In this document: one piece after another, positions 30,104 through 48,794 of the stretch
How positions within the stretch are numbered: position 1 is the stretch's first letter
How the letters are laid out: every line of letters begins with the position of its first letter
Virus record (IMG/VR): IMGVR_UViG_3300008629_000003
Coordinates: 8,694-72,693 of that record
Strand: one strand, 5' to 3'
Origin: a virus
DNA length: 64,000 nt
Made by a program: the position numbers and the translations under genes
Notes under the pieces: model-generated
The model's input: only the letters and a program-made list of their open reading frames with translations
Databases searched by the model: none
Told to the model about the DNA's origin: nothing

Positions 30104-30379
30104 TCACGTTTGTGGAGGATTGTCAACAACTCGGCGCACAATTACCCTTCTGCGGGCTTTGGGCGTGGCGGCGGCGGGCTCTTTTAGCGGCGCGGAGCTC
30201 AACAGCGGAACCTCTATGTCTGCGCCACAGCCACCGGGGCACAGCGCCACCACCCGGCCGTCGCTTCCAACCTTGATGATCCTGTTGGCCAACGTCCACT
30301 CCCCGCGTCGCTTTTTCCACAGCGATTTGTCGCAGGTGTGGCATTTCACCTCCACCGCGGCCGGATCAATCGCGGCCAA
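30104..30379 (-). CDS. Small zinc-ribbon protein (Mu Com-like)
   Basis: VKCHTCDKSL...ALCPGGC. Confidence 0.55.
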   Translation of the reverse strand: MAAIDPAAVEVKCHTCDKSLWKKRRGEWTLANRIIKVGSDGRVVALCPGGCGADIEVPLLSSAPLKEPAAATPKARRRVIVRRVVDNPPQT

Positions 30380-30608
30380 TGATTGCCTCTAGTCGAGCGC
30401 GCTCCGCTAGAAGAGCCCTGAGACGGCGGTGCGTAAAGATGCCGCCGACGTCTTTGCTCAGGGCTTCTTGGGCCTTCTGTATTGCTGGCCCCATCGTGTC
30501 GAGCTGGGCCTTCGCTCGGGCGATCAGCTTCTTGCGCTGCGCGTCCGACTGAAGCCGGTGGGTTTTAAGGCGTACCAGATGACCGACTGCTTGTTGGTGC
30601 TGACTCAT
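30366..30608 (-). CDS. Hypothetical helical protein
   Basis: ATGA overlap with the giant upstream gene. Confidence 0.55.
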   Translation of the reverse strand: MSQHQQAVGHLVRLKTHRLQSDAQRKKLIARAKAQLDTMGPAIQKAQEALSKDVGGIFTHRRLRALLAERARLEAIIGRD

Positions 30609-33600
30609 GCTGCCCCTTTGTGCTTTTCTTGGAGGGCCTTTTGGTACGCGAAGGCGACCCCGTGCTCGTCTAGGTTAGCGAGCGGGCTTTGGAATACATC
30701 GGCAAGCCCGCTTTTACGGCGCAATCTGCGGCGCGCGGACGTGTCGAATTCTGTGTCTGTGTGCCAATCGTGGACGTCCACATTTCCCGTTTGGCCTTGC
30801 CGGTACGCACGGCCGGATCTCTGGGCGTGACTCTTCATCGTTTGCGGGACGTCGTAGTGGTGGATCGCTTTCCCTCGCTGAAGATTGAGCCCCGCCTCTC
30901 CCGACGCCGTGGATACAATGACGTCGTGCTTCGGCGGGCCGCTCCCCTTCGGGTCGAATCCAAGCCTCACCGAATCGCGAGCCGACGCGGTGAGTCCCCC
31001 ATGGTACAGCGCGGAACGTAGACCGCGGCGGCGAAGCTCTTCGTGGATAAGTTTCGCGCCTGCCAGAGAATCGGAGAACACAATCGAAGGTTTCCCCTTT
31101 TGGCTGTTGCCGTCACGGTCCACATAGAGCCCGTGGTTTACGTCGTGCTCCAGCACGTCGGCCATTTGCTTGAGTTTTTGGTTGTGCTCTACCGGGGCCA
31201 GGTTTACCGCGCGGCGCATAGCGGACTCTCGAATGATTCCGAGGCTCCGCGACAAGTCACGCGCTACGCGTTCGTGGTCGGCGGCGGGAATATCGAACTT
31301 TCCAGGCGCCGCCAAGAACTTCATCGCTTCCACATCTACGCCCCCACGTTGCCGGGCGGCCCTTGCTCGCTCGTACATTTTTTTGGTCTTGTCTACCAAC
31401 GCCGCGTGCTTTCCCGTTAGCTTGATCGGTCCTTCGCCGGGCACCTTCCGTCCCTCTACGATCCGCGGGTTGGAGCTATCCAGACGCTTGACCCCTTCTG
31501 GCTTCACGTGGGCCGTGTAAGTCATGTGGGCCATCTCGCGGCGGATCGCGTCTGGATTGTGCGCGAGGTCTTGTCCATATGCCTGCATGAATTCGTGAGC
31601 GTCTTGGTACTTCACGGGATCGAGCTTCGATGCCATGGCGAAGACTTCGCGCTCATCGTTTTTGTGCGGCGTAGCCGTCCCGGCCAAGTAGTGTGTACGA
31701 TTGATCGGGTGACTTACGGCGCTATTCATCATCGCGACCCCGCTTGGGTTGTCTCTCCACGTCCCAAGGTGCGCCTCATCCTCATACACCATGTGCTTTG
31801 GGATCCCGTGGGCATCGAAAGCCTCACGCATCCACCGGGCGCGGGTCTCGGGCGTGGCGCTTTCCATGTCGGTCCTCATTTGCTTGGGTGTTCGGCCATG
31901 GTGTTCGCTCATGAGCTGGAGGGCAGTGTCGCGGAATGCCTGGTGTGTCATCACCCGCATGTGCAACGAATCGTCTTTGAGCATTGCCACGCGGTCGGCG
32001 TGCTTTTTGCCAACGCCTGTGCTCCAATTGTATTGGCCCGGCTCGGTAAATTGAAGCATTGCGCTATCAAATTGCGATTGGACGGCAGCGGGCACCAGAA
32101 ACAAACCGTGCTTTGTGTCGCCAGCGCTGTGTAGGTGTGTGAATCCCCCGATCCCGATCGCCGTCTTACCCGTACCAGTCCCAAGGAACGCTCCAACCGA
32201 TCCAGATTCCTGCAACATCTTGATCACGCGCTGGCCGTGGACACGCTCTTTATCCATGCGGATACCAAACAGCGGCACTTTTTGGCCAGCTTTGAAGCCC
32301 TTGCCGACCTTGCTTACCATGGATGTTAGCTGCTCTTCGGCTTGTTTGCCGAGCGTGTGGCGCTCGCCTTTGCCGGGGTCCGGTAGCTTCCGCGCTTCTT
32401 TTTGGGGCGGCGGTTTTGCGCTGAACATCGCCATTTGGTTTTGCCTGTCGATCTCCTCGTGAACCAAATGCTCAGACGCTTTGCGCTTTGCCGCGCCCTT
32501 TCCGCCCATATCCGCGAATCCGCCGCGCTCACGTTTTTGCACCTTGGCGTACATGCTTCGTTGTTCCGATAGATACTGGTCCAGCTCATCCGGCGTCGAC
32601 GTGCCTTTTATGTGCCGCTCTTTGTTCGGGATTTCTTGAACGCCAACGCGCAACGATCGGCCCGTGAGCTGACCGTGGTGGCGCTGCATCGTTTTTGCGA
32701 AGTCGCCGCGGATCTCGTGCTGCATAGCGGTCTGGGCGAGCTCCAGAGACGTGTGCGCGTTTACAAACTTCCCCCACGCGGTTGGCTGCTTGGCGACCTC
32801 GTCTTTGATTTCACGAACCCGAGCGGGATCTGGGTTGTCTCCGAGCGCGGAGATCGCATCTTGCAAGCTGGCGCGGCGGTATTTTTTGAGAACTTCGTCA
32901 CGGTCGCGCGCCCAGTCCTTCCACTCTGGGGACGGCCCCGGCGCCATGAAGGACATACTCAGCGTCCCCCGATCCGGGTTTGGCTCGGGGCCTAGCTTTT
33001 GCATTTCGGCCATGTATCGGGTTTCATCGACCTTTGTTTTCTTGTCGATCCCCATTCGGTCATAGTAAAAATCTCGGAGCGCGGCCTTGTCGTCGTGCGT
33101 CATTTCCGCCAACGGCTTGAAGGCTGCGACCGCGGTTGGGTGTTCCGCAAGCGACCGAAATACCGCCTCGTGGGTATTTGGGTCGTTCACCTGCAAATCT
33201 TGGGAGTGGATAGCCCCGGCCGTTTTGCCGTAGGTCTTCTCCATGAACCGATCCGAAAGCCCCTCGAAATGTTCCGACACCTCCTCATACTTGACCTTTT
33301 TCCCGTCCTCCCCTCTCATCGGAAAGAGCTCACGCACGTGATCGATGTATTGCTGACGGTCGGGTGCTCGTTCTATGTTCTGCGGGCTCAACAGGTCGGT
33401 CATTACGGCCGACGGGTGCTCGCCCTCTGCCAGCCTAGATCCAATGTGGTCCTCTAAGCCTTGCCGCACGTCTGAACCCAGGTCCAAATCCTGATACAAC
33501 GGAGGCGACTCGGGGACCGGGTCATTAAACGACGAATTTGCACGGCGCGCGATTCCCGTTGGTAACCAGCCCTCCTCGTCGTGTTCGCCGTTACGAATCG

Positions 33601-36600
33601 CAACGGCACGCGCCCGCTTTTCCATTTCGGCCTTCGGCGTCTTTGTGATCAAATTATCCCAGGAACCGCTCGGGATACTGACCTTTTTCTGCTTGTGGTC
33701 GACTTGGTAATGCTCGGGCCGCAATCCAACGGAATGAAGCCACTGGAGCGTCGTTGCTGTGTCGCCCTTGACTTCTAGTTGGTCGGGTAGACGCGTACGA
33801 AATGCGTGGCCCATGGTTGCCGTCGCTTCCATCTTGCCAATTGCCGCCCCGACGGCCGACTGTGCGTCGTCGATGTCTTGGTTGTAGGCGTCAAGCTGCA
33901 ACAACGCCGTCTCAATATCCCCGGCCGTCTCCACCGCTGTTGACAGGTCGGGGACGATCTTGTTTGCGGTGGCGATGGCATCGGCCGCCACCGGTTCCAA
34001 TCGGTCGGCGTGATACCCCTCCAGCGCGTGCAAGACCGTGGATCCGTCGTGGCCGTCGGACTCCAGCGCAAACCGAGTCAGAATCGCCGCATTTTTCAAT
34101 CCTATGGCCTCGACTGTGCTTCGGTCTAGATAGCGTTGACCACCAATACCAAGAGACACATCGGCGATTTCTGAATAATGCGCCTGGGCCACGGAGTTTA
34201 ACGCCACCGAGCTACCCGTATCGTGCAGACCCAAAAGCTGATTAGTGAGCGACCGCTGGGTCTGCTCTCGTATGGATTCGGTTGTTTTAGTGTCTAGCGC
34301 CTCGCTCACGTCGATCTTGAAAGCCGACCGAGCCGCTAGATAGTCGCCCTTCTCGATCTCCTTGTTGAGCTTGCGGAACTCTTTCGACTTCTGGGCGAGC
34401 TCCACCGCGTCCGACAACACCTCGCGCATTTCTGCGAGCTCCACCGGCTGGGGGGGGGCTTTTTCTGCCTCAAGCAACCCCAGACGTTTGGCCGTCCCGG
34501 CCGCGCGGGCAAATGACCCGACCATGTCTCCATGCGCCAGGGCCTTCATTGCGGTGTGAGGCGATTCTTCTTTTTCAATTTCTGCAAAACGCTTTGCGCG
34601 CGACTTCTCCACCTCAAACCGGCGCAGCTTGGCGGCGGCGGCGCGCTGGAGCTCTTCTTTGCCGTCGTCGGCCGTTTCTTCCAACCCTCGCCGCTTCATT
34701 TCCTCACGTACGGCCGGGTGCTTTAGCGCCGCGGCGTCGCCTTCTGATGCGGCCTTTAGCAGTCGCGCGTCTTGCAGGGCTTGAAGCGACCGTCGGGTCA
34801 CCTCGTCGCTGGCTTTTGGTGGCGTCGAAGGTATTCCGCCTTTGTCATCCCGACCGCCTAATCGCTCCAGCTTTTTGTCGGGGCTTGGTTGAGAGTCGAT
34901 GATCTCCAGCGCAGCCTCAGCCGCTTTGGACCCAACTTCCGACTTTCCCGCTGATCGACGTTGCTTGCGTTTTCGCCGGTCGATTTTTCTCTCTTCTCGT
35001 TCGCGGTTATCTAGTTGCAACGCCAACGTCGCCAACTCTTGCGCCTTTGCCGCTACGGCCGGCGTTTCTTTCATCGCTTGCGCGACGTTGGCTTTCCAAC
35101 CCGCTTGCTGGCCTTTTGCTTCGGCCACCTTCTCGGCAATCTCGCGCGCTTGCGCCTTTGCTTCTCGTAGCTGTTTGGCATGGTGCCGCGAAAGCACCAG
35201 ATTTTTGGCACCCTTCGGCATGTGGATCAAGTTGGATTCGTCTAGATCCTCGGATACGTTGCCAGCTTTGGCGCGAACCTTTTCGATAAAATCCCGCTCG
35301 GCGCCGCGCTTGGCATCTTTGACCTTTTGCTTGGCCTGCTTTTCGTCCTCAATAGCCGCCGCGCTCATTTTGCTTTTGCGCTTTTTCTCTTCGACGGCCT
35401 TCTTCTTTCGCCGGCCTTTGGCCTCTTTCTTGTACTCCTCCTCCGATTTAATGTCCTTGAGTTTGAGGTAGCTTAGCTTTCCACCGGCGCCGCCGACAAT
35501 ACGGTGAACCCCTTCGCCGGCCGGCTCAATGATCACCGGCACCCCGCGCTCATCTTTGCCATTCGGGTGCACGGTGATCCACCGCTGGCCAGGCTTGAGA
35601 GGGAGTGAAGCTTTTCGCATGGGTTGCGGCAACAGACCCGAAAGCTTGTCATAAGTCGCCTGGTATTTCTCGGTCTCCTCTTCGGACGCAAGAAACCACA
35701 TGACGCTGGACAGGTGGTCAGCCCACAAACGCCACCGACGCGACGCTCTTTCGATCCGCCCCGGGTCTCTTGACTCCAACGCGCTCTCTAGGATTTTTCG
35801 GCGGGGTCGCTCTTGCTTCTGTAGCTCTTGGACGTTTTCTGGAAACAGGGCGTGGTCGTGGCGATAGTAGAACGAAGAGAGCTCCTCCACGTCGGTGGCT
35901 TCGTCGCCCCCCTCAACTGCTTGGCCTAGATCCATCATCTGGAGGTGACCGTTTGCATCTCGGCCGACCTGGATCTGATCGTTGATTGTCCAGCCGTGGT
36001 CGTGCATGTGCAACACAGCGTCGCGGACGTGGTCTAGCTCGTCGGGGGTCAGGTCTTTGGCTTCGTCCAAATACGGCCGAATCATCCAAAACCGGCCGTC
36101 GTAGACGCCGCCGCTTGCCTTTTGCACCATCGGCAAATCTTGCAACGCTTTGCGAGCGAGGTATTCGTTGCGCAAATGATCGATCGCTTCGGCTGGCGTT
36201 CGGTGGCCGTCGCTTTCGGCCTGAAACGGCGTCGTGGTTGAAACCTTAACGACGTGGCCGCCCACCCGATACACGACCCCGTCCTGCCCTTTTCCTAGAT
36301 ACTTGCCGCCACCGCTCAACAGCTTTTTGATTACGGGGTGTGGAGCTCCCTCGGGGTCGTGGTGGAGCTCTTTACGCATGTCGTGAATATGGTGCGGGAC
36401 CGATTGTGTCGGCACCTTGTACGGCCGGCTAGTGTGCTCCCCGCCGTGGGTAAACGAGCGCTTACGGGTGAGCCATGTATGATTTTCGTCCTGCTTGTGA
36501 ACATGAATCGACCCGCCGCCGTACGCGTTCGGAGTTTCCCACGACGCGCCGGGCTTGACGTCATTTTCGTGGACCTTTTGCCAGCGCTTGACGCCCGTCT

Positions 36601-37012: not shown

Positions 37013-37015
37013 GTG

Positions 37016-37240
37016 TCACCTTGGGAGATCAGACGCATCATGGCCGGTCACGGGGCTATATCGGATCGCGCCGGCTGTTTCTTTCAAGTCGTGCAGGAGC
37101 TTCCGGTAGCGTTCCCGCTCTAGCGGAGAGCTAGAAGACTGGATCGCTTTTTCGACGCGACCAACCGCCGCCTCTAGTTTTCCGCTCGATTTTTGAAGCT
37201 TGATCTCTGCCAAAATCGACTCAGCATGTAGCGCTTTCAT
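37016..37240 (-). CDS. Hypothetical protein
   Basis: Fills the gap in the operon; carries LQKS and VEKA motifs. Confidence 0.55.
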   Translation of the reverse strand: MKALHAESILAEIKLQKSSGKLEAAVGRVEKAIQSSSSPLERERYRKLLHDLKETAGAIRYSPVTGHDASDLPR

Positions 37241-37243
37241 ATT

Positions 37244-41065: not shown

Positions 41066-41439
41066 AGTTTAAACGTCCCAGGGTACCGGGTGACGGGGGC
41101 AGCATAGGACCGAAAGACTCCGCGGTCGGGAACCTTGCCCTCTCGGAATTGTGCCACAAGTTGAGGCGCTAGAGCTCGGGCCGCTTTCATCGTTGGGCAA
41201 ATGATATGGTAGGGGAGCGCGTGGTTCGGTGTTTCAACCGACAAAACGCCGACACCCGCCGCGGACTTCACGAACCGAAACATCAACCCGTCAACGCGGA
41301 ACGAACGCCCACCCTGCGACGCTCCGGCCCCGCCCGTTGGAGACCAAACCGTCTCCACCGCTTTGGCGAGCTTGGCCAAGCCGATGCGGCGTCGAATGGT
41401 CAGCCTTACCGGAATCCCGTATCCATCAACTAGCTTCAT
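41062..41439 (-). CDS. Hypothetical protein
   Basis: 4-nt overlaps with both neighbours; LAKA motif. Confidence 0.6.
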   Translation of the reverse strand: MKLVDGYGIPVRLTIRRRIGLAKLAKAVETVWSPTGGAGASQGGRSFRVDGLMFRFVKSAAGVGVLSVETPNHALPYHIICPTMKAARALAPQLVAQFREGKVPDRGVFRSYAAPVTRYPGTFKL

Positions 41440-44400
41440 TTTTTGCCTCGTTTAAACGGGTTGTGCTTTTTGAGCTTTTCCAGGTATTTGGCGAACGCGC
41501 TCTCCTCTTTGGACAATACCCCGCGCGCCTTTTCCATAGTCTTGCTCCCTGATATCGTGAGACCTTGCCGGTAAGCTTCCACCACGGTGGGGTCGATGTA
41601 ATTGTCGAGCGCGGTCTTTACTATGTGGCCCCATTCCGTCTTAACTTTCGGGCCATCTTTGGCCGCTACGACCTTGTGGTCGGTGTCTCCCAGAGCCTTC
41701 TGGTACGCCTTGCGCTCCTTTGCCGAGTGAAACCCCACGTGGCCGCCCGCGTAGACCTTGCCCCCGTGCTTCTTTGCCATTGCTCGATCTGGCTCTGCGT
41801 GCTTGACGAAGTGCTTCCGCGTTTTCCCTTTTTTGTGCCCTAGCGCTTTCGCTGCTGCCATTGCGGCCTTCTCGATCTTGACCTCTGCGTCTTTGGCGCT
41901 TGTTGGCGGTCCAAGCTTGTCGGCTGCTTGCGCGAACAAATTCGACGCATGGAACGTCCGAAAGTCTTTGACTGTGCCGCCGTTGGTGTGAGCTCGGACA
42001 TAATTTCGAAGAACCGCCGCGCTAACCGGCGCGGATGTGCCGTTCGCCCGAACATATTGGAACAGGTTTTTAGACGCGCCTGGCTGCTTTAGAAGGTGCG
42101 CCACGATCCGCGCCACCTTTGGGTCTTTCATCGTTTTAACCTGCGGCACGCCTGCCTTGCCGGCGTATCGCATGGTCACCGTGTCACCATTGACCCGCAC
42201 ATGCGAGGATTTTAGGGTCGTCACCCCATACGATCCCTTGGCGGCGCTCGACGTGTTTCCCGCGCGAATTAGGGTCGCATCAACCAGCGCCACCATCGCC
42301 GCCGAAACGGCATCTCTCGACGTTGGCGCTAGGTCTAGGTGGTCCTGTATGATGCCCCTCGCGTGCCCGAGACCCGTGGTGAAACGGGCCATTTTACGGA
42401 ACTTTTCCTCCGCATTTTTTACTAGGTACGCATTCCGATAGCTGTTGACCTTTTTCCCCTGGGCGTTGCGCCAACTCATAGAGCTGTTCTCTTCCGGCTT
42501 AGAGATCGTGACCTTTGTTCCGAGGGGTGGATACTTGCTGTGCTCTGGAAATCGCTTTTGCAGATCGGCAAGGTACTTCTTGTCGGCGCTCTTTTTCTTC
42601 GCGGCGCGACGCTCGGCCGGCGTCGCCTCTTTTTCACCGGTGGCGGCTTTTCGCGCCGCGACGGCCGGGTGGCTGTCTTGGTGCTTCGCGTAGTGCCCAT
42701 GGTCGACCTGCTCTTGCTGGCCGGTTTTTTTGTCGATGACCGTGACGCCCTTTTCGCCGGAGCTCATGGTCACGCCGCGGCGCACCTTACCAGATTTGGA
42801 GCGGTACTTTACGACTTCGCCCTTTGGTTTTCTCGGCTCTTTTTTTTTTTCAGTCTTGGGCGGGCGCGCTTGTGCTTGTGGGTCTTGCCCCGTCTTTTGC
42901 CACCGACGGACGCCCGGGTTTTTCTTTGATGCGACAAGCTGTTGGCCCTGGTGCTTACCTGCGCCGGCCTGGGCCGGGTCCACCTTGGGCTGACCGTTGC
43001 CGACGGCCTTTCTCATTACAAGCCGGAGCCCAAACCGGATCCGCGCTTTGTTGAGCTCTTCCCAAGCATCGTGTTTAGCCCACGCGCGAGACTCCGCGGC
43101 CGTTTGCCTTTTTTCGCCGCGCCTGTAATCTGCCTCCTTCACTTCTTGGCGCATCTTTTTGTAATGTTTGGTTTCCAGTGCTTTGAGGCGCTTCTTTTCA
43201 GCGGGACTCAACACGCGCTCGGTTTTCACGCGGGTGATGACGGTTTGCTTGTCGCCTCGCCATTCGTCGTGTTTCTTGATCGTGCCGTGCAGCTTGTACG
43301 AATGGCCGACTTTGAACGGCGCTCGGCCTTTGGGTGCGTTTTCATATGGCTGGGCGGACGGAGCGTGATCGTAGGTGGGCGAGCTTGAGAAGTATTTTAA
43401 CGTTTGCCCGCTTTTCGTCTTGAAGGTCAACAGGGTGGTCGTGCCATATTGCCCGTGGATGTCGCGCGTTGACACCAGCGTCGCCTGTTGTGCCGGTGTG
43501 GGCGGCTTGACCCCTTTCTTGCGCTGTGCCTGGGTCATTGCCAACTCCCCAAACTTTTCGCCGGGCTTCCCTATGTGCTTTTGCGGTGGCGGGGCCTTCT
43601 TTGCGGGCGCGGCTTTTTCTGTTGCCTTCTTTTCGGCCTCTCTCTTTAGGTGGTTGTCGTACGCGTTAACCGCTGACACCGCCACGCCCATGTGGTTCTC
43701 GGGCACGCCCGTGTTGCCTGCTCCATGGTTTTCGCCCAAGGCGCGTAATTTTTGATAGTACCCAGAACGGCTATATGCCGGGATCTTTTTCATCCACGCG
43801 ATCACCTTTTTGGCTTTCTCGGCGGCTTTCTTGTCTGTTCGGGCCGATGACCATACTCCGACGCTCTGCTGGCTTTTCAGGAAACTACTTGTGCTCTTGA
43901 CTTCCGATCCCGGCCGGGAATTCGCATCCGCGCGGGCGGCCGACATATACCCATCGTGCGGGTTTCCTGGGTGGTCCAACCAGTGAGCCGTCGCCTGTAT
44001 GATTGCAGGAAGGGCAACCTCTAGTTTCCCGCGCGGCTCCTTCGCGTAACTGTCAAACTCTTTTGTGTCCCAACTGGATAACCACTCCGCAGCCGTCGCG
44101 GCGGTTTTGGGGTCTTGACCGAAAAAATCACCTAGACACGTTCGGCCGACTTGGACGTGCTTGTTGTGGTCATCCTTTAGGACGTGCAGCTTGGACCGTT
44201 GGCGGTTTTTTCCGCAAAAATCACAATGTGAGCCCGACTTGTGAAATTGGTGCGGCACTTTTTGGCCGCGGTGGTGGTTGACCATGTTTCGCTTCGCGCC
44301 GGGCTCAAAGCTTCCCACGTAAGCCCAGCCGTGGGACTTCATTTCCGGCCCGGTGATTTTGACCGCCACGACCGGCACCTTTTGTCGCACCTGTTTCGTG

Positions 44401-45257
44401 TCGCGTTCGCCCATCATGGAGTAGCTACCCTCCACGGGTTCCCCGGGATGCTCCCACGGCACCGTCCGCAACATCGTGGCCATTTTCTTGCCCAAGATTT
44501 CCATATGCGGCGGCTGTAGTCCTAGCTTGATCGCTCGCTTTTGCATTCGAGCAAATTTCTTTTTAACCGTCGCTAAGTTTTCTTGTGGAATAGCGTGCAG
44601 GCTAGAGCGCGGCCCTTCATTAGCCGCCTGGATCGCCTTCTCTTTGGCGTCTTTTAACTTCCCGTGGCCAACGCTGACCCACTCCACATGATCGTCGTCG
44701 AAGACGTGGCCGACCTTCCACTTCTTCCCGGCCTTCTCAATGACCGTCGTGTTGTCGCCGACGGTGACTAGGTAGCCCCCTTTGCCGTCGCGCTTCGTTT
44801 TCGACTTGATCGGCGCCGGCTCCTCTACATCACCCTCAGTGTACCGCTGCCTAGCCTGGGCACGCTGGGCCTTAATCTTGGCCCAGACGTCGTCTTCCTT
44901 TTTCTCGGGCGCTGTCTTTTTGGCCGGTGCCTTTTTCTTCGCCGCGGCTTTCTTCTTCGCCGCGGCTTTCTTCTTTACCGGTGCTTTCTTCTTCGCCGGC
45001 GTGGCGGCTTTGGGCTCGTCGTCGAAAATCTCGGGAAACAGAATCCGAAAAGGATCCATCTCTTCCGGCTTCTCGGCCGGCTTCTCGGCCGGCTTCTTCT
45101 TGGGCTTCTTCTTGGCGGCTGGCTTGACCTTGTCTGGATACTCGTAGCGCCATTTTCCGCTCGGGAGCTTTTTCTTCCACCCGCCTTTGTTGCCGCGGGT
45201 GACGCGTTGCCAGCCAACGCCCGGGGGCTTTGCCGATTTCAGGAGAATGATCTTCAT
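41436..45257 (-). CDS. Polyvalent protein: Lys/Ala-rich region, Zn-finger/OB module, DNA topoisomerase IB
   Basis: Start MKIILLKS by ATGA overlap; LIRAGN, YGVTTL, YAGKAG, KDFRT, ALGH, NYIDP (R-K-R-H-Y pentad). Confidence 0.85.
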   Translation of the reverse strand: MKIILLKSAKPPGVGWQRVTRGNKGGWKKKLPSGKWRYEYPDKVKPAAKKKPKKKPAEKPAEKPEEMDPFRILFPEIFDDEPKAATPAKKKAPVKKKAAAKKKAAAKKKAPAKKTAPEKKEDDVWAKIKAQRAQARQRYTEGDVEEPAPIKSKTKRDGKGGYLVTVGDNTTVIEKAGKKWKVGHVFDDDHVEWVSVGHGKLKDAKEKAIQAANEGPRSSLHAIPQENLATVKKKFARMQKRAIKLGLQPPHMEILGKKMATMLRTVPWEHPGEPVEGSYSMMGERDTKQVRQKVPVVAVKITGPEMKSHGWAYVGSFEPGAKRNMVNHHRGQKVPHQFHKSGSHCDFCGKNRQRSKLHVLKDDHNKHVQVGRTCLGDFFGQDPKTAATAAEWLSSWDTKEFDSYAKEPRGKLEVALPAIIQATAHWLDHPGNPHDGYMSAARADANSRPGSEVKSTSSFLKSQQSVGVWSSARTDKKAAEKAKKVIAWMKKIPAYSRSGYYQKLRALGENHGAGNTGVPENHMGVAVSAVNAYDNHLKREAEKKATEKAAPAKKAPPPQKHIGKPGEKFGELAMTQAQRKKGVKPPTPAQQATLVSTRDIHGQYGTTTLLTFKTKSGQTLKYFSSSPTYDHAPSAQPYENAPKGRAPFKVGHSYKLHGTIKKHDEWRGDKQTVITRVKTERVLSPAEKKRLKALETKHYKKMRQEVKEADYRRGEKRQTAAESRAWAKHDAWEELNKARIRFGLRLVMRKAVGNGQPKVDPAQAGAGKHQGQQLVASKKNPGVRRWQKTGQDPQAQARPPKTEKKKEPRKPKGEVVKYRSKSGKVRRGVTMSSGEKGVTVIDKKTGQQEQVDHGHYAKHQDSHPAVAARKAATGEKEATPAERRAAKKKSADKKYLADLQKRFPEHSKYPPLGTKVTISKPEENSSMSWRNAQGKKVNSYRNAYLVKNAEEKFRKMARFTTGLGHARGIIQDHLDLAPTSRDAVSAAMVALVDATLIRAGNTSSAAKGSYGVTTLKSSHVRVNGDTVTMRYAGKAGVPQVKTMKDPKVARIVAHLLKQPGASKNLFQYVRANGTSAPVSAAVLRNYVRAHTNGGTVKDFRTFHASNLFAQAADKLGPPTSAKDAEVKIEKAAMAAAKALGHKKGKTRKHFVKHAEPDRAMAKKHGGKVYAGGHVGFHSAKERKAYQKALGDTDHKVVAAKDGPKVKTEWGHIVKTALDNYIDPTVVEAYRQGLTISGSKTMEKARGVLSKEESAFAKYLEKLKKHNPFKRGKK

Positions 45258-48200
45258 GCTTCGTCCCCAATGTGGACATAGTGTCCATGTTCGACCCGGT
45301 GGAGCTCTCCGGTCTTGTGGTCCATAACCGACACGCCGTCCAATCCTGACGCGTGCAGGTCGCCCGTACAGGGCTCTCCGGTCTTGGGGTGGCGGTACCT
45401 CACCCCCTTGCCCTTGGAACCCCCTGGGGTGCCGCGGTGCGCCTTGCGCAGCATGACACGGGCTTTCTGTAGACTGCTTGGGCCAAGCTTTTTGTTTTTC
45501 GCCAGGTATTTCAACACCGCGGCGCGATCGCTCCACTTGGCTTTGGGCAGGTGAATCTGAAAGAAACTTGCCCCCGAGTCTTTGTCCACCGCCGAAACAA
45601 ACCACTTGTCGGGCTTGTCCACAACGTACGCGTGGATCTCTCCGTCGGCAAACGTCCCCAACAACTCCATGCCGGCCACATTTGGCACGTTGGGCGCTGG
45701 CGGGTGGGCGGACATAGGCCCGTGGTACTGCGGCGTTACTTTTGGCTTGGCGTGCCCGCTCGTTTCCTTCCACGGCCTCGTATGCTCCGCGTCGGCCCAT
45801 TTACCCCCGCGGGGTCCGAGGAAGGGTCCAGCGCTGGCCTTACGCAGCATGACACGGGCTTTCCGTAAACCGTGCTCATACTCGTAATCTTCGCGGGCAT
45901 CTTTTGCGTCTCGGTATGCGTTGACGTTCGCTAGTAGCGATTTCCTGCTAAACGCGACGACCTCAGACGCTTTTGAGGTAGCAGCGCCCGGGTTCTTTAC
46001 GATGATCCCGTCGTGCCCCTGACTTATCAGCTTGCGAACGTCGGCGTGCGTTAGGTCTTTTGGGCTGATTTCTCCCTTGTTTTCTACTACCTTGGGGTTG
46101 CTTAGGGCTACGTGGGTTTTGTGTAGGTTGGGTCCGTATCGGTTGGCATATTTCCGGCGTGGAGACAGGTAAATGCCGGCCTCGGACCCAGCGTCCGCTC
46201 CGTGAATAGTTCGACCGTGGTTCGCCTGATAGACCGTCAACGGCCCGCCGTCTTGACCCGTTAAAGGGATCGGCGGTCCATGTTGTTTATAGACGCTCGA
46301 CAAGTCGTGATCGGCGGCGGGGTGTGACGCAGCGGCGGTGGATTCCTTCCACGGCCTTGTGTGCTCCGCGTCGGCCCACTTACCACCGCGGGGTCCGAGG
46401 AAGGGTCCAGCGCTGGCCTTACGCAGCACAAACCGAGCGCGGCGCCCCTTGGTCCGCATTCGCTTGTCGAGCTCTGCGTCTAGAGCGGTCTGGAGTAGGC
46501 TGTGCGCTTTTCTCATGTTGCCACCGCCCACGGCCTTGACCCTCACTTCGTACGTCCCGTCTTTTCGCCGCTTGACCTTTTCCACCTGAATTTTTCCGCC
46601 GACCACCACCTCATGCTCGGCGTGGAACGTGGACAGCCCGCTAATGTCCGTCCCTCGTTTTGTCTTCATGGTCAGGATAACCGGGTGACGTTTTGTCGGT
46701 TTGGTGTGGCCCTCGTCCTTTTGCTCGGTTGCTGCGAAGGTTTCGGCGGCGGATCTCTGCTTAGACCAACTCGACATCTCGCGCAAGTCTATCTCTGCCC
46801 CTTTGGCTAGGCCCTTTATTGCCCCGGGTGGTAAGCGCACGCCGCGGTGGAGCTCTACGGCGTAATCACCCTCCACCTTGGCCAGCGTCTTGAGCACTTT
46901 GTAAGCTTGCTGGTGTAATTGCTTCGTGCTTTCGGCTTTCCATTGAAGGGTCTGGACTGGCTTTGCAAGCTTTTTTTGCCATTGCTTCGGGTCGCGCACG
47001 GACTTCACATTGCCGGCCGTCCATAGCGTTAGCGCATCGAGCAAGGCCGCGTGCGTAGCAGGCAACGCGGCGCGGTGCCATTGAAATTTGAGCGCCTCTT
47101 CGCCGCCGTGGTACCTCGCGAGGCTAAACAGCTTCCACACGGTGTCGGGGTCTTTTCCTGACTTGCGCGCGGCCTCTTTGACCGATTTTCTTCCTGCGGC
47201 AACACAGTCGTCAAATGTCGCGCCCCCGGCGTTCTGCGCTCTCTTAAACGCCATCCGATAATGGAGACTCAACCCATGAAAATCATATCCAACATGCTTG
47301 AGGGCTTGTTTTGCTTCCTCGTTGGGAACGTGCGACATATTCGAAACAGGGTGATATTTCTTTTCCTCTTCAAGCTCGAAATAGGCTGCCTCTAGTCCTT
47401 TGGTGGTCCAGTTTACGGCGCCCCCCGGGGGCATGGTTCGCACCCGAATCTCTTGGTCTGGATACCAGACCTGCGTGTGCGTGCTCCACTTGCCCTGGAA
47501 GACTCGACTATAGCCAAGCCCATCACCTAACGGCTTCCATTCGCTTGCGGCTCCCGTGCGTTGGGCTTCATCGGCCGGGGGTCGGGCAAGGTCGGCGGCT
47601 TCTTTTAGGTCCGACGCGCGGACTTTTTCGTGGTGAGCTTTATACTTTTCGAGGAATTCGGCCTCTGTCAGCTTGAGCTTTTCCCGGTATGGCTTGAGAA
47701 ATCCATGGTCCTGCGCGTCTTTGTAGTGTCGCCACAACCCGACGGACATACTGTCCAGACCATTCCCTTCGTAATCGTGGTAGGCGTCTTGTATCCATTC
47801 GTTTAGCGCTGCCTCGTGGGCGGCTGGGCCGGCTTCTAGCGCGGCCTGGCGCTTTGCTTCCGTCTGCTTGTCGCGCGCAGTCTTCCACGCGCCACGCATC
47901 GCCTTTAGGATGTCACTCCGCGCCACCCCCTTGATCTCCTTTCCGATGACAGGCAAAAGATCGGCAATCTTGCCACCCCGCAGGAGCAACATTTGCGTTT
48001 TGCCCTCGTTCAAATCTGGCACCAACTTTTCCATTTCGGGCCATTTCTTTACTAAGAACATCTCAAGGCGTCGGCGGGCCTCTACGTCTTCTTTGTGGTG
48101 GTGGTGGTGGCTTTTGTAATAGGCGAGCGCATGTTTCCAAGCCCCCGCGGCGTCGTCCCCCCATTCTTCGGGGAGGCTTGGCTTCATGTCGTCGAAACGC

Positions 48201-48403
48201 ATGTGAAAGTCTTTGCGGTTGCTATCTTCCGACCAGAACTGTCTATATTTCCATTTCTGCGCCCATTTTCTAGCCGCTTTGGGCGCCGGCTTAAACGACT
48301 TGTCGCCGACGCGGGTGTGTTCCTTCACTCTCACCACCTTGCCGCTCGGCAGGGTGCGAAAGTGAGACTTTACTTGGTGGGCTTTACCAAGAACAATCCG
48401 CAT
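45254..48403 (-). CDS. Polyvalent protein with two ADP-ribosyltransferase domains
   Basis: LHRG..SSWS..EHE (R-S-E clade); PLTVY..GIYLS..A..Y..NP..GHDGIIV..EVVAF (ART-PolyVal-like). Confidence 0.8.
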   Translation of the reverse strand: MRIVLGKAHQVKSHFRTLPSGKVVRVKEHTRVGDKSFKPAPKAARKWAQKWKYRQFWSEDSNRKDFHMRFDDMKPSLPEEWGDDAAGAWKHALAYYKSHHHHHKEDVEARRRLEMFLVKKWPEMEKLVPDLNEGKTQMLLLRGGKIADLLPVIGKEIKGVARSDILKAMRGAWKTARDKQTEAKRQAALEAGPAAHEAALNEWIQDAYHDYEGNGLDSMSVGLWRHYKDAQDHGFLKPYREKLKLTEAEFLEKYKAHHEKVRASDLKEAADLARPPADEAQRTGAASEWKPLGDGLGYSRVFQGKWSTHTQVWYPDQEIRVRTMPPGGAVNWTTKGLEAAYFELEEEKKYHPVSNMSHVPNEEAKQALKHVGYDFHGLSLHYRMAFKRAQNAGGATFDDCVAAGRKSVKEAARKSGKDPDTVWKLFSLARYHGGEEALKFQWHRAALPATHAALLDALTLWTAGNVKSVRDPKQWQKKLAKPVQTLQWKAESTKQLHQQAYKVLKTLAKVEGDYAVELHRGVRLPPGAIKGLAKGAEIDLREMSSWSKQRSAAETFAATEQKDEGHTKPTKRHPVILTMKTKRGTDISGLSTFHAEHEVVVGGKIQVEKVKRRKDGTYEVRVKAVGGGNMRKAHSLLQTALDAELDKRMRTKGRRARFVLRKASAGPFLGPRGGKWADAEHTRPWKESTAAASHPAADHDLSSVYKQHGPPIPLTGQDGGPLTVYQANHGRTIHGADAGSEAGIYLSPRRKYANRYGPNLHKTHVALSNPKVVENKGEISPKDLTHADVRKLISQGHDGIIVKNPGAATSKASEVVAFSRKSLLANVNAYRDAKDAREDYEYEHGLRKARVMLRKASAGPFLGPRGGKWADAEHTRPWKETSGHAKPKVTPQYHGPMSAHPPAPNVPNVAGMELLGTFADGEIHAYVVDKPDKWFVSAVDKDSGASFFQIHLPKAKWSDRAAVLKYLAKNKKLGPSSLQKARVMLRKAHRGTPGGSKGKGVRYRHPKTGEPCTGDLHASGLDGVSVMDHKTGELHRVEHGHYVHIGDEA
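45764..46428. repeat. 86-bp direct repeat (45764-45849 and 46343-46428) flanking one ART module
   Basis: 82 of 86 nt identical, all differences synonymous; encodes LRKASAGPFLGPRGGKWADAEHTRPWKE. Confidence 0.9.
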
Positions 48404-48410
48404 CGATCAC

Positions 48411-48782
48411 CTATCGCGCGTCGGCCCACACGTTAACCGTCGTGGTCTCACCACCGCCCGGGGCAGCGTTGAGCGTTACGACAACCCCGCCAGATGCGTT
48501 CGCGTCGGCGGCCGAGACGACGTAGCCCGTGGACGATCCGCCCGACTTCGCCGCAATTGATGCGACACACTTTGCTCCCGCAAATGTGGTCCCCAGCGCA
48601 AGCGTGCCGCTCGTGTTGCTTTCACCGATTACAATCGTGCCGGTCGTGACCTTGGCCACCTCGTTGAGGCGTGTTCCGAGGCCGACCGCCGTTGCCTTGT
48701 ACTGAGGTACGATTGGCGATCCGGCGCGGGCGCCGTTGAGAAATGCGAGATTTTCTGACGAAAGGGTGGGTAGCTGAGCCAA
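48411..48782 (-). CDS. Virion structural protein
   Basis: AAGGAGG RBS; small T/G/A-rich beta protein. Confidence 0.55.
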   Translation of the reverse strand: MAQLPTLSSENLAFLNGARAGSPIVPQYKATAVGLGTRLNEVAKVTTGTIVIGESNTSGTLALGTTFAGAKCVASIAAKSGGSSTGYVVSAADANASGGVVVTLNAAPGGGETTTVNVWADAR

Positions 48783-48794
48783 CTTGGCCTCCTT

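What the first reader, a model, noticed from the sequence alone, without database searches (positions are those of the whole stretch)
30104..48403. Candidate capsid-loaded effector polyprotein system: 18 kb of enzymes embedded in the head operon
Seen: four giant, tightly coupled genes (1049, 1273, 1273 and 2135 aa) plus small partners lie between MuF and the prohead protease. They carry two ADP-ribosyltransferases, a topoisomerase IB, a kinase-like domain, a Zn/OB module and two SNF2-like ATPases. The proteins share a grammar: short hydrophobic strand, xK-[A/S/G], basic beta-hairpin, then a payload domain. Known: T4 Alt and internal proteins and P1 DarA/DarB are packaged in heads and injected, and large polyvalent proteins occur near MuF genes. 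Inference: these are polyproteins loaded into the prohead, cut into separate enzymes, and ejected with the DNA to remodel it and disable host defences before transcription.
Basis: partly seen in the sequence, partly recalled or inferred. Interest (0 to 1): 0.88.

Follow-up and report, generated by a model that had tools for sequence, protein, structure and literature searches.

The report
Cuttable enzyme cargo in phage head operon
An uncultured phage encodes four giant multi-enzyme proteins among its head genes, and their modules are joined by a short motif that also sits where the capsid protein and head protease are expected to be trimmed, so they are probably packed into the capsid, cut apart and injected, though none of this has been shown experimentally.

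Summary
The observation mostly holds. On the minus strand the order is terminase, portal, a weak MuF-like gene, two small genes, then giants of 1049, 1273, 1273 and 2135 aa with four small partners. An assemblin-fold protease, an acidic scaffold and the major capsid protein follow.

- **Domains:** topoisomerase IB, two SNF2 ATPases and a kinase fold are confirmed. The two ADP-ribosyltransferases rest on sub-threshold Pfam hits. The "Zn/OB" module shows only three invariant cysteines.
- **Junction motif:** hydrophobic-x-K-[A/S/G] occurs 9 times in the giants against 0.73 in shuffles. It also lies in the capsid protein N-arm in 9 of 9 lineages. It lies in three disordered linkers of the protease family and at the portal C-terminus in 4 of 4 phages.
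- **Module starts:** homologues in Bordetella phage PHB04 and Morganella phage Mecenats66 begin with the motif. Homology breakpoints fall on it.
- **Hairpin:** the canonical basic hairpin follows only one window junction. A site-plus-hairpin profile finds 129 protein clusters elsewhere, and no Pfam family covers it.

My best reading is polyvalent, Dar-like capsid cargo cut by the head protease (confidence about 0.55). Packaging and cleavage are untested. The scan has noted the same tag on other DNA (e1-5985754, e1-5889662, e1-6053533, e1-6076122, e1-6005987). I class it as a new variant of a known kind.

The parts
50743..52593 (-). Portal protein (616 aa). The C-terminal K-A site with a 12-residue hydrophobic tail lies at about 50782-50796
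   Evidence: phrog_2662 E 9.4e-14. A C-terminal K-A is seen in 4 of 4 portals compared (window, G001, PHB04, Mecenats66)
49168..50328 (-). MuF-like minor head protein (386 aa); weak assignment
   Evidence: phrog_2468 E 1e-4; colinear BLASTP E 0.019 to the PHB04 386-aa protein at the same position; no Pfam or NCBIfam hit
48411..49166 (-). Two 123-aa ORFs of unknown function between the MuF-like gene and the first giant
   Evidence: no PHROG or NCBIfam hit
45254..48403 (-). Giant A, 1049 aa. In order: N-terminal site plus canonical hairpin; an unknown ~440-aa region; an R-S-E-type ART-like module; junction; ART-PolyVal-like module; junction; a small unknown module; junction; a small beta-rich C-terminal module
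48287..48403 (-). Giant A residues 1-39: the site (K at residue 7) followed directly by the basic hairpin
   Evidence: leader HMM E 4.7e-13, residues 4-39; alignment A1
46418..46966 (-). Giant A residues 480-662: candidate ADP-ribosyltransferase (sub-threshold)
   Evidence: PF01129 E 8.6e-4, 19.1 bits against a cut-off of 22.3
46334..46453 (-). Giant A junction 1 (site at residues 658-663) plus a G-P-R-G-G-K-W type tag
   Evidence: 93-nt DNA repeat copy at 46336-46428
45836..46414 (-). Giant A residues 664-856: ART-PolyVal-like module (sub-threshold)
   Evidence: PF18760 E 3.4e-4, 21.8 bits against a cut-off of 31.2; 68% identical to P0215 639-881, with homology starting at the junction
45755..45874 (-). 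Giant A junction 2: double K-A site (residues 847 and 856) plus the second copy of the tag
45440..45478 (-). Giant A junction 3: double K-A site ending at residue 988
45257..45439 (-). Giant A residues 989-1049: small beta-rich module. It is repeated in giant B (808-856) and giant F (51-96)
   Evidence: BLASTP 3.3e-7 and 8.4e-4; it equals the N-terminus of P0099
41436..45257 (-). Giant B, 1273 aa. In order: N-terminal site plus a G-W type basic tag; a Lys/Ala/Pro-rich basic stretch; a phrog_2319 Cys-cluster module; junction; small beta-rich module; topoisomerase IB
43188..44594 (-). Giant B residues 222-690: phage-specific module of unknown function with three invariant Cys
   Evidence: phrog_2319 E 9.5e-49; A4 invariants. 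It stands alone behind a leader in P0146. Atlas: viral hypothetical-protein clusters at 0.96
42990..43055 (-). Giant B junction (site at residues 746-751, with a K-A 11 residues upstream)
41802..42533 (-). Giant B residues 909-1152: type IB topoisomerase catalytic domain
   Evidence: PF01028 E 4.9e-25; PDB 2f4q E 7.8e-18
41062..41439 (-). 125-aa partner. It is homologous to the C-terminal module of leader-bearing polyproteins elsewhere and contains two K-[A/S] sites
   Evidence: BLASTP to the C-termini of P0100, P0003, P0149, P0117, P0104 and P0212
37244..41065 (-). Giant D, 1273 aa. In order: site at residues 22-27; an N-domain shared with giant F; an acidic and coiled region; SNF2 ATPase; a double site near the C-terminus (about 37313-37402)
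   Evidence: PF00176 E 3.2e-14; phrog_62 E 1e-24
37016..37240 (-). 74-aa partner, homologous to the C-terminal end of P0197
30605..37012 (-). Giant F, 2135 aa. In order: small beta-rich module; kinase-like module; junction; then a complete homologue of the PHB04 and Mecenats66 'helicase' (N-domain, long helical region, SNF2 ATPase)
35618..36610 (-). Giant F residues 135-465: protein-kinase-like fold
   Evidence: AF2 mean pLDDT 75.6. Foldseek against PDB gives 14 hits at E <= 1e-3, all kinases. Invariant Gly-loop, Lys, Glu, catalytic-loop and D-x-G columns in A3. Atlas 0.91-0.93
35585..35611 (-). Giant F junction (K-A-S at about residues 473-475). It corresponds to the N-terminus of the stand-alone helicases of PHB04 and Mecenats66
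   Evidence: the kinase model ends in a low-pLDDT tail just before it
30638..32233 (-). Giant F residues 1594-2125: SNF2-type ATPase
   Evidence: phrog_62 E 5.3e-58; Helicase_C E 3.5e-13; P1 DarB 1474-1555 E 2.9e-9
30104..30608 (-). 80-aa helical and 91-aa Cys-rich small partners downstream of giant F. A small gene sits in the same place after the helicase in PHB04, Mecenats66, L012 and L015
29082..29960 (-). Prohead protease, assemblin-like (292 aa from this ATG; the true start may lie further upstream, up to 30107). It has K-[S/G/A] sites near the N-terminus and twice in the C-terminal linker
   Evidence: 84 homologues. Invariant H73, H93 and S161. AF2 mean pLDDT 83.8, with low confidence at 1-11, 203-211 and 228-250. 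Foldseek top hits are herpesvirus assemblins, with T4 gp21 at rank 34
28346..29113 (-). Scaffolding protein with an extremely acidic repeat
   Evidence: 21-nt repeat, 4.3 copies, 100%; same position as the acidic proteins in L012, L013, L014 and G001
26775..28286 (-). Major capsid protein (503 aa). The conserved K-A site is at about residues 17-18 (about 28230-28253)
   Evidence: phrog_752 E 7.5e-22; the site is present in 9 of 9 lineages

Best explanation
This is a capsid-cargo cassette. It encodes four polyvalent (Dar-like) multi-enzyme proteins and their small partners, expressed with the head genes of a myovirus-type phage related to Bordetella phage PHB04 and Morganella phage Mecenats66.

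Each module is introduced by a short hydrophobic strand ending in Lys-(Ala/Ser/Gly). A small basic element usually follows: a His/Arg beta-hairpin, a G-P-R-G-G-K-W peptide, a G-W type peptide or a small beta-rich domain.

Inferred mechanism: the proteins are recruited into the procapsid. The basic elements may bind the very acidic scaffold and later the DNA. The assemblin-fold head protease, which carries the same motif in its own linkers, then cuts at these junctions while it trims the capsid protein, the portal tail and itself. The released enzymes are two candidate ADP-ribosyltransferases, a kinase, a topoisomerase IB, two SNF2 translocases and modules of unknown function. They leave the capsid with the DNA and act on host proteins and on the incoming DNA, by analogy with P1 Dar and T4 Alt.

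Shown: the gene order, most domain identities, the motif and its enrichment, its conservation in structural proteins, and the modular swapping at the motif.

Inferred: packaging, cleavage, the exact scissile bond, the role of the basic tags and the targets of the enzymes.
For: 1. Position and coupling. The cassette lies between the portal/MuF-like genes and protease-scaffold-MCP, with overlapping starts and stops. There is no excess of promoter- or terminator-like sites inside it. PHB04 and Mecenats66 have the same layout.

2. Motif enrichment. There are 9 strict-pattern sites in the four giants against a shuffle mean of 0.73, and 0 of 2000 shuffles reach 9.

3. Same motif where maturation cuts are expected.
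- MCP N-arm in 9 of 9 lineages.
- Portal C-terminus in 4 of 4.
- Protease family N-terminal site in 32 of 37 aligned members, and second C-linker site in 31 of 37.
- All three protease sites fall in or at the edge of segments with pLDDT below 50.

4. Protease identity. H73, H93 and S161 are invariant in 37 sequences. The top Foldseek hits are almost all herpesvirus assemblins, which use a Ser-His-His triad, and PrV assemblin ends at an Ala in vivo.

5. Module starts.
- The PHB04 helicase, methylase, ppGpp-type enzyme and 169-aa protein, and the Mecenats66 helicase, begin with the motif. That is 5 of 17 annotated cassette CDS against 0 of 39 outside the cassette in the fetched loci.
- Giant F residues 463-2134 equal those whole helicases, with the motif kept at the fusion point.
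- Giant A 663-907 equals P0215 639-881, with homology starting at the site.
- Further breakpoints are listed.

6. Wider family.
- A profile of site plus hairpin finds 129 cluster representatives at E <= 1e-3 among 1.84 billion.
- Local HMM scanning finds 241 instances in 130 of 140 sequences.
- 147 of 221 hairpins have the K-[A/S/G] strand within 30 residues upstream, and 74 of 221 are N-terminal.
- Payloads include LPD1, ART-PolyVal, InPase and a C5 methylase.

7. Precedent for packaging. [quoted passage not shown] JC1 gp69 was found in virions with 51 peptides (PMC9144972, Table 6 text). phi24B gp47 was found in virions (bioRxiv 10.64898/2026.04.10.717836, passages).
Against: - There is no direct evidence that these proteins are in virions or are cut. 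No virion proteome of PHB04, Mecenats66 or the Thermus relatives was found in the papers read.
- P1 DarB is described as a 250-kDa virion protein, so it may be carried whole. That is a precedent for uncut cargo.
- The motif is short. 5 of the 10 motif-bearing candidate starts in the window lie outside the cassette and protease, in three ORFs.
- Giant D has no internal site between residues 27 and 1222. Giant F has one strict-looking junction in 2135 residues and none by the strict pattern.
- The canonical hairpin is detected at one window site only.
- The protease fold match is weak (best E 3.1e-3, TM 0.26-0.38). BLASTP at E <= 0.01 finds no match between this protease and the proteases of PHB04 and Mecenats66.
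- The two ART calls are below Pfam thresholds.
Confidence: 0.55

Rival explanations
1. The proteins are packaged but not cut. The hydrophobic K-[A/S] strand and basic tag would be a docking (capsid-targeting) element that binds scaffold, protease, portal or shell by strand addition. The giants would travel whole, like P1 DarB or the N4 virion RNA polymerase.
For: P1 DarB needs only its N-terminal 30 residues for packaging and is described as a 250-kDa virion protein (PMC9024508, passages). The strand sits at the very N-terminus of stand-alone cargo genes. 52 of 102 internal sites have a second K-[A/G/S] 5-14 residues upstream, which would also fit a repeated docking strand.
Against: The same motif occupies the MCP N-arm, the portal tail and three disordered linkers of the protease itself. 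Trimming is the usual event at such positions. An internal copy at every module joint is hard to explain for docking alone.
Confidence: 0.2
2. The giants are not virion cargo. They would be late-expressed intracellular enzymes for DNA handling or anti-defence that merely sit in the head operon. The motif would be a flexible linker or a recombination joint that helps to shuffle modules.
For: DNA repeats of 93 nt (92% identity) and 34 nt (91%) coincide with the junctions of giant A and could drive module gain and loss. Module content differs strongly between relatives. No packaging data exist for this lineage.
Against: The motif is conserved at the protein level across GC-rich and AT-rich lineages, where DNA repeats cannot be shared. 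It also occurs in MCP, portal and protease. Related giant proteins are found in virions of other phages.
Confidence: 0.13
3. Cleavage happens, but by another enzyme or at another time. It could be autoproteolysis or a host protease acting after injection. Iyer et al. proposed this kind of processing for polyvalent proteins that carry metallopeptidase domains.
For: Iyer et al. 2017 discuss autoproteolytic release by MPTase domains (PMC5512222, passages).
Against: No peptidase domain was detected in any cassette protein by Pfam, PHROGs or NCBIfam. The motif is shared with the head protease's own linkers.
Confidence: 0.07

Closest known systems
Polyvalent proteins of phages and conjugative elements (Iyer, Burroughs, Anand, de Souza, Aravind 2017, PMC5512222; abstract and passages read)
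   Same: Several unrelated effector domains sit in one giant polypeptide. The genes lie beside portal, terminase and MuF-type genes. Packaging and injection are predicted. The families are shared: an ART-PolyVal-like module and SNF2 ATPases here, and LPD1, ART-PolyVal and InPase in proteins carrying the same leader.
   Different: In the passages I read, processing is attributed to built-in metallopeptidases. I did not see a repeated junction motif shared with the capsid protein and head protease, or the basic tags, described there. I did not read the whole paper or its supplements. No Pfam model covers the leader.
Phage P1 Dar anti-restriction system (DarB, Ulx, DarA, Hdf, DdrA, DdrB)
   Same: A giant SNF2-type protein is encoded beside the portal and protease genes, followed by a small gene. 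In P1 the cargo is loaded through an N-terminal signal and injected with the DNA. Giant F matches DarB residues 1474-1555 at E 2.9e-9.
   Different: No methyltransferase domain was found in the window's giants, and no DarA/Hdf-type protein was detected. The P1 DarB N-terminus shows no obvious hydrophobic K-[A/S] strand (by eye). P1 cuts its capsid protein between Glu and Ser.
Phage T4 internal proteins and Alt, with their capsid targeting sequence removed by gp21
   Same: A short N-terminal peptide ends in the head protease's cut motif. An ADP-ribosyltransferase is among the injected cargo (described in passages of PMC9024508 and PMC5512222).
   Different: The motif differs: T4 cuts after Glu (recalled). 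T4 cargo proteins are separate small genes, not multi-module chains with an internal copy of the signal at each joint.
Ejection proteins of phiKZ-like giant phages (SPN3US) processed by the prohead protease
   Same: Many head and ejection proteins are cut by the head protease at a shared motif (PMC5694885 and PMC7411985; search listing and abstract starts only).
   Different: It is a different phage lineage with a different motif. The tag-plus-payload modularity seen here is not part of what I read.
Herpesvirus assemblin (Ser-His-His capsid maturation protease)
   Same: Best fold matches. Two His and one Ser are invariant in the family. The protease is followed by a linker and a C-terminal helical domain bounded by candidate self-cut sites. 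PrV assemblin ends at Ala in vivo. I recall the herpesvirus consensus as hydrophobic-x-Ala then Ser.
   Different: There is no sequence-level match to any PDB chain and the fold scores are weak. The scaffold is a separate gene here.

Membership tests
Polyvalent proteins (Iyer et al. 2017) | Two or more unrelated effector domains in one polypeptide | tested here: met
   Giant B: phrog_2319 module plus topoisomerase IB. Giant F: kinase fold plus SNF2. Giant A: two ART-like modules, both sub-threshold
Polyvalent proteins (Iyer et al. 2017) | Encoded by a phage beside portal, terminase and MuF head genes | tested here: met
   the MuF call itself is weak
Polyvalent proteins (Iyer et al. 2017) | Hallmark Pfam families (LPD, ART-PolyVal, Kinase-PolyVal, InPase) above threshold | tested here: inconclusive
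   In the window, ART-PolyVal scores 21.8 bits against a cut-off of 31.2, and Kinase-PolyVal appears only as an Atlas lead at 0.91. In proteins sharing the leader, LPD1 (2.5e-22), ART-PolyVal (1.8e-11) and InPase (3e-41) pass
P1 Dar system | DarB-type fusion of an N6-adenine methyltransferase with an SNF2 helicase | tested here: not met
   No methylase domain in any giant. Only the helicase C-lobe matches DarB (E 2.9e-9). PHB04 does have a 2097-aa protein annotated as N-6 DNA methylase in the cassette
P1 Dar system | DarA/Hdf-type head-morphogenesis partners | tested here: not met
   No Pfam, PHROG or NCBIfam hit for the small partners. The two 123-aa ORFs were not scanned against Pfam
P1 Dar system | Presence in virions and protection of DNA from type I restriction | not testable with these tools
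   Needs virion proteomics and plating on restricting hosts
T4-type capsid targeting sequence | Short N-terminal peptide ending in the head protease's cut motif, removed in the prohead | tested here: inconclusive
   The sequence form is present: K at residue 7 of giants A and B, and at positions 5-21 in 50 N-terminal leaders elsewhere. Removal is not testable here
Assemblin / prohead serine protease | Assemblin-like fold | tested here: inconclusive
   Foldseek top hits are herpesvirus assemblins (best E 3.1e-3, prob 0.97, TM 0.26-0.38), with T4 gp21 at rank 34. A sequence profile finds no PDB match
Assemblin / prohead serine protease | Conserved Ser and His catalytic residues | tested here: met
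   H73, H93 and S161 are invariant in 37 aligned homologues. Their spatial arrangement was not inspected
Assemblin / prohead serine protease | Gene directly upstream of scaffold and major capsid protein | tested here: met
   the same order in G001 and L011-L015
Type IB topoisomerase | Catalytic-core domain above the family threshold | tested here: met
   PF01028 88.7 bits against a cut-off of 23.7; PDB 2f4q E 7.8e-18
Type IB topoisomerase | Active-site Arg/Lys/Arg/His and Tyr all present | not tested
Protein-kinase-like fold | Bilobal kinase fold with Gly-loop, Lys, Glu, catalytic loop and D-x-G | tested here: met
   14 PDB hits at E <= 1e-3, all kinases; invariant columns in A3
ADP-ribosyltransferases | Family model above threshold, or a fold match | tested here: inconclusive
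   Both modules are below the Pfam cut-offs. No PDB sequence hit.

The most novel reading that the evidence does not exclude
A sequence-readable 'address and cut' code for phage capsid cargo. A hydrophobic strand ending in Lys-(Ala/Ser/Gly), recognised by an assemblin-type head protease, is followed by interchangeable small basic tags that first bind the acidic scaffold and then the DNA. Under this reading any enzyme placed behind the cassette is loaded, released as a separate protein and injected. In many relatives the cassette also carries a Q-L-x-L-F peptide that looks like a sliding-clamp docking motif. If true, injected effector sets could be read directly from phage genomes, and foreign proteins could be loaded into capsids by design.
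Probability: 0.35. Interest if true: 0.8.

Novelty: new variant of a known kind. Interest (0 to 1): 0.62.

Why it matters
Which proteins a phage carries in its head and injects is usually learned one phage at a time by mass spectrometry. If the junction motif and its tags mark cargo, injected anti-defence and takeover enzymes could be predicted from sequence. That would cover a widespread set of mostly uncultured phages (129 protein clusters for one tag type alone).

The payload list here (ADP-ribosyltransferase-like modules, a kinase, a topoisomerase IB, SNF2 translocases) points to activities that act on the host or on the entering DNA before any phage gene is expressed.

The cassette would also be a natural handle for loading foreign proteins into capsids, as was done with the T4 and P1 signals.

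The general idea of packaged polyvalent proteins has been in print since 2017. The new part is the shared cut-and-tag punctuation and its link to the capsid protein and to an uncatalogued assemblin-like protease family.

Tried and rejected
- **Complex prediction.** A prediction of the protease core (A2 residues 15-205) with a 60-residue junction segment of the giant-A cluster representative P0010 gave 'no answer'. It counts neither for nor against binding.
- **Internal translation starts at the junction Met codons.** The DNA upstream of the internal Met codons shows no Shine-Dalgarno-like run, unlike the true gene starts. Rejected.
- **Sequence searches that found nothing.**
  - PDB with giant A found no ART hit.
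  - PDB with the protease alone found nothing relevant.
  - The protease profile found nothing in PDB.
  - The phrog_2319 module profile found nothing in PDB.
- **Family scans.** NCBIfam added nothing beyond the helicases. Pfam at relaxed E-values found no family covering the leader or hairpin.
- **Homologues of giant A.** The search gave only its own cluster and one partial relative, so no useful alignment for a structure prediction of giant A could be built.
- **Cultured phages.** tblastn of one leader against 50,697 phage records found no match. A hairpin-rich protein (P0109) matched only through its DUF6496 N-terminus.
- **Host assignment.** A protease-profile scan of one genome per species gave only 3 MAG contigs with inconsistent labels: Enterobacteriaceae, proteobacterium and Thermoleophilia. 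No host was assigned. There are no tRNAs in the window.
- **Regulatory sites.** The promoter and terminator scan inside the cassette found no more than shuffles give.
- **Literature.** Searches for 'capsid targeting sequence' with 'polyvalent protein' found 0 papers. A search on prohead protease, cleavage motif and internal proteins found only the SPN3US and T4 literature. Supplements are closed. The supplementary files of Iyer et al. could describe the leader, and I could not see them.
- **Dropped step.** The catalytic residues of the topoisomerase, the ART-like modules and the SNF2 motifs therefore remain unchecked.

Full report
**Anatomy**

All genes of the region lie on the minus strand. 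Reading 5' to 3' on that strand:
- large terminase (52985-54859)
- a 130-aa ORF
- portal (50743-52593)
- a 140-aa ORF
- a 386-aa MuF-like protein (49168-50328)
- two 123-aa ORFs
- giant A (45254-48403, 1049 aa)
- giant B (41436-45257, 1273 aa)
- a 125-aa ORF
- giant D (37244-41065, 1273 aa)
- a 74-aa ORF
- giant F (30605-37012, 2135 aa)
- ORFs of 80 and 91 aa
- a protease (29082-29960 or longer)
- an acidic scaffold (28346-29113)
- the major capsid protein (26775-28286)

The longest ORF for giant B is 1454 aa. Starts and stops overlap or are 3 nt apart throughout. The cassette holds no more promoter- or terminator-like sites than shuffled sequence. TerL, portal and MCP are identified by PHROGs. 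The window is part of a 72.7-kb virus record.

**Domain claims**

- *Topoisomerase IB* in giant B is solid (PF01028 E 4.9e-25; PDB 2f4q E 7.8e-18).
- *SNF2-type ATPases* are present in giants D and F.
- *The kinase-like module* of giant F (residues 135-465) has no Pfam hit. An alignment with four homologues shows invariant Gly-loop, Lys, Glu, catalytic-loop and D-x-G columns. The AlphaFold2 model has mean pLDDT 75.6. It matches only protein kinases in the PDB, with 14 hits at E <= 1e-3. The Atlas features point the same way.
- *The two ADP-ribosyltransferases* rest on sub-threshold Pfam hits (PF01129 E 8.6e-4; PF18760 ART-PolyVal E 3.4e-4). I could not raise them.
- *The 'Zn/OB' module* is phrog_2319, a phage family of unknown function. 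It has three invariant cysteines in five aligned homologues, no PDB relative and only viral hypothetical-protein neighbours in the Atlas.
- *The MuF assignment* is weak.

**The junction motif in the window**

A hydrophobic run ending in K-[A/S/G] occurs at these residues:
- giant A: 3, 658, 851 and 983
- giant B: 3 and 746
- giant D: 22, 1222 and 1246
- the 125-aa ORF: twice

A further K-A-S lies at about residue 473 of giant F, in front of its conserved N-domain.

A strict pattern, written after seeing the sites, gives 9 hits in the four giants against a mean of 0.73 in 2000 composition-preserving shuffles, and none of the shuffles reaches 9. A looser rule (three of the four residues before the Lys hydrophobic) gives 9 against 2.6, and 2 of 2000 shuffles reach it.

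Among all 1366 candidate starts in the window with at least 100 codons downstream, 10 have the motif in their first 16 residues. All 10 are on the minus strand. Five of them belong to giants A, B and D and the protease. The other five fall in three ORFs elsewhere in the window, so the motif alone is not diagnostic.

What follows the site differs between junctions:
- The N-terminus of giant A has a His/Arg hairpin.
- Two junctions of giant A carry a 27-residue tag containing G-P-R-G-G-K-W.
- Giant B starts with a G-W type basic peptide.
- The last junction of giant A is followed by a small beta-rich module that recurs in giants B and F.

Only the first of these matches the hairpin profile.

**The same motif in the structural proteins**

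The capsid protein has a hydrophobic-x-K-A about 10-13 residues before a conserved V-P-E-D-L-E segment. An equivalent K-[A/S] is present in 9 of 9 lineages examined: the window, G001 (G002 is nearly the same phage), L011, L012, L013, L014, L015, PHB04 and Mecenats66.

The portal ends with K-A followed by a short, largely hydrophobic tail of about 9 to 26 residues in 4 of 4 portals seen.

The protease has 84 homologues. In an alignment of 37 of them:
- An N-terminal L-x-K-[A/S/G] is found in 32.
- A second site in the C-terminal linker is found in 31.
- A third site (consensus L-R-K-G) lies between them.

In the AlphaFold2 model (mean pLDDT 83.8) the only segments below pLDDT 50 are residues 1-11, 203-211 and 228-250. 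These hold or directly adjoin the three sites. They separate the catalytic core, a Cys-rich loop and a C-terminal helical hairpin.

**Protease identity**

No Pfam, PHROG, NCBIfam or PDB sequence match exists. The family has invariant His73, His93 and Ser161. The model's best PDB matches are almost all herpesvirus assemblins, with T4 gp21 at rank 34. The scores are weak, though (best E 3.1e-3, probability 0.97, TM 0.26-0.38).

Assemblins use a Ser-His-His triad, and pseudorabies assemblin ends at an alanine in vivo (PMC4498786, passages). From memory, herpesvirus sites are hydrophobic-x-Ala followed by Ser. By analogy the bond after the small residue is a candidate, but a cut directly after the Lys is equally open.

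BLASTP at E <= 0.01 finds no match between this protease and the proteases at the same position in PHB04 and Mecenats66. Both of those still carry M-L-K-A near their N-termini.

**Relatives and module boundaries**

tblastn finds the giant F helicase and the capsid protein in Bordetella phage PHB04, Morganella phage Mecenats66 and Thermus phages.

- PHB04 has portal, then a ppGpp-type enzyme, a phosphatase, a 386-aa head protein, a 169-aa protein, a 2097-aa methylase and a 1518-aa helicase. Small genes, protease, scaffold and MCP follow.
- Mecenats66 has only the helicase.

Five of the 17 annotated cassette CDS in these two phages start with the motif. None of the 39 annotated CDS outside the cassette in the fetched loci does.

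Breakpoints that fall on the motif:
- Giant F residues 463-2134 align with the whole PHB04 and Mecenats66 helicases from their residues 5-15. Giant F is therefore such a helicase fused behind a 470-residue kinase-bearing extension, with the motif kept at the joint.
- Giant A 663-907 is 68% identical to P0215 639-881. The homology begins at the site, and a nine-residue second copy of the site is simply absent in P0215.
- The phrog_2319 module stands alone behind a leader in P0146.
- The kinase module follows a leader in P0129 and P0099.
- The 125-aa and 74-aa partners match the C-terminal ends of polyproteins elsewhere.

A metagenomic relative with 61% capsid identity (G001) has 34 kb between portal and MCP. 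That stretch holds giants of 1700, 695, 1684, 1444, 501, 577 and about 1880 aa. Several of them start with the motif followed by Q-L-x-L-F and the hairpin, and two internal copies lie in the 1700-aa protein.

**Census of the leader**

I aligned eight leaders (A1). A profile search of 1.84 billion cluster representatives found 129 proteins at E <= 1e-3 and 24 at E <= 1e-10. Their lengths run from 40 to 3447 aa, with up to 13 matched stretches in one protein. Further counts:
- Local HMM scanning gave 241 instances in 130 of 140 sequences.
- A regular expression for the hairpin core found 221 instances in 117 proteins. Of these, 147 have a hydrophobic K-[A/S/G] within 30 residues upstream: 71 at a spacing of three residues, most of the rest at 9-20. 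Of the 221, 74 are N-terminal.
- In 50 N-terminal cases the Lys lies at positions 5-21, most often at 6-10.
- Of 102 internal sites, 52 have a second K-[A/G/S] 5-14 residues upstream. Dipeptide frequency predicts about 20%.
- 70 of the 140 sequences contain Q-[LM]-x-[LM]-F. Earlier notes of this scan read that peptide as a sliding-clamp docking motif. In the window it is absent from the junctions and occurs once, inside giant F.
- Payloads behind the leader include LPD1, ART-PolyVal, InPase, a C5 DNA methylase and PaaX-like domains.
- No Pfam model covers the leader.

**Mechanism and rivals**

The best-supported reading has three parts:
- The cassette encodes capsid cargo.
- The motif is the recognition site of the head protease.
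- The basic elements behind it are retained at the new N-termini.

The very acidic scaffold repeat suggests, without any test, that the tags first bind the scaffold and later the DNA.

The main rival is packaging without cleavage, with the strand acting as a docking peptide. P1 DarB is a precedent, since its first 30 residues suffice for packaging and it is described as a 250-kDa virion protein. A second rival is that these are ordinary intracellular enzymes and the motif is a linker or recombination joint. The 93-nt and 34-nt DNA repeats at giant A's junctions fit module shuffling. They cannot explain protein-level conservation across GC-rich and AT-rich lineages. Cleavage by a built-in peptidase is unlikely, because none was detected. 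Internal translation starts were rejected.

**Comparison with what is known**

- Polyvalent proteins, and their predicted packaging, were described by Iyer et al. (PMC5512222).
- P1 Dar proteins are packaged and injected (PMC9024508, PMC12810830).
- The Thermus Lalka phages have DarB-like genes followed by Ulx-like genes (PMC11437467).
- Giant DarB-like or polyvalent proteins were detected in virions of JC1 and phi24B.
- T4 and phiKZ-like phages cut head cargo with the prohead protease (listing only).

Against this background the window adds three things: a different cut-type motif shared by cargo, capsid protein, portal and an uncatalogued assemblin-like protease; interchangeable basic tags; and a cassette with four giants.

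My literature searches found no description of this punctuation. They cover open-access text only, and supplements were closed. This scan has reported the same tag on other genomes. I treated those notes as leads.

**Verdict**

It is a new variant of a known kind.

Noticed in passing
window 28188-28205 (MCP) and 29220-29231 (protease): The segment V-P-E-D-L-E of the capsid protein N-arm recurs as the consensus V-P-E-D-L-E-G in the linker of the protease family, just before its C-terminal helical domain. The protease may mimic the N-arm to enter the shell, or this may be a second processing signal.
   Followed up: partly
window 28833-28923: The scaffold gene holds a perfect 21-nt repeat (4.3 copies, 100%) that encodes an extremely acidic Glu/Asp/Ile repeat. 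Relatives also have acidic scaffolds.
   Followed up: partly
window 45757-45849 / 46336-46428 and 45441-45474 / 45837-45870: Direct DNA repeats of 93 nt (92% identity) and 34 nt (91%) coincide with the junction-plus-tag elements of giant A. They could mediate duplication or loss of modules.
   Followed up: partly
window 44906-45115: The N-terminal part of giant B is a Lys/Ala/Pro-rich basic stretch encoded by 18-nt and 12-nt tandem repeats. It may be a DNA-binding spacer.
   Followed up: no
window 32423-32437: A single Q-M-A-M-F peptide lies in giant F about 65 residues before the SNF2 domain. It resembles the clamp-type peptide common in leaders of other phages.
   Followed up: no
window 40985-41002: Giant D may start at an in-frame GTG at 41002. 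That would put its K-S site at the N-terminus, as in giants A and B. The ATG at 41065 overlaps the stop of the upstream gene.
   Followed up: partly
window 41062-41439 and 37016-37240: The 125-aa and 74-aa partners are homologous to the C-terminal ends of giant leader-bearing proteins in other phages. Genes have therefore split or fused at module boundaries.
   Followed up: partly
window 12215-13906, 15316-16272, 22081-22722: Three ORFs outside the cassette have candidate starts carrying the same N-terminal hydrophobic K-[S/G] pattern. These may be chance, or further processed virion proteins.
   Followed up: no
window 50830-51013: The portal C-terminal region is encoded by imperfect 36/63-nt and 9-nt repeats that give a Gln/Gly/Asp-rich segment just before the K-A site.
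   Followed up: no
G001 (L004, L007, L008): The closest metagenomic relative has a 34-kb cargo region with seven large proteins. They include a C5 DNA methylase, an LPD1 protein and a PaaX-like domain protein. Cargo content therefore turns over quickly between phages with 61% identical capsid proteins.
   Followed up: partly
window 30104-30379: The 91-aa ORF upstream of the protease has two Cys pairs (a zinc-ribbon-like pattern) and ends in a basic hydrophobic tail. It has no database hit.
   Followed up: no
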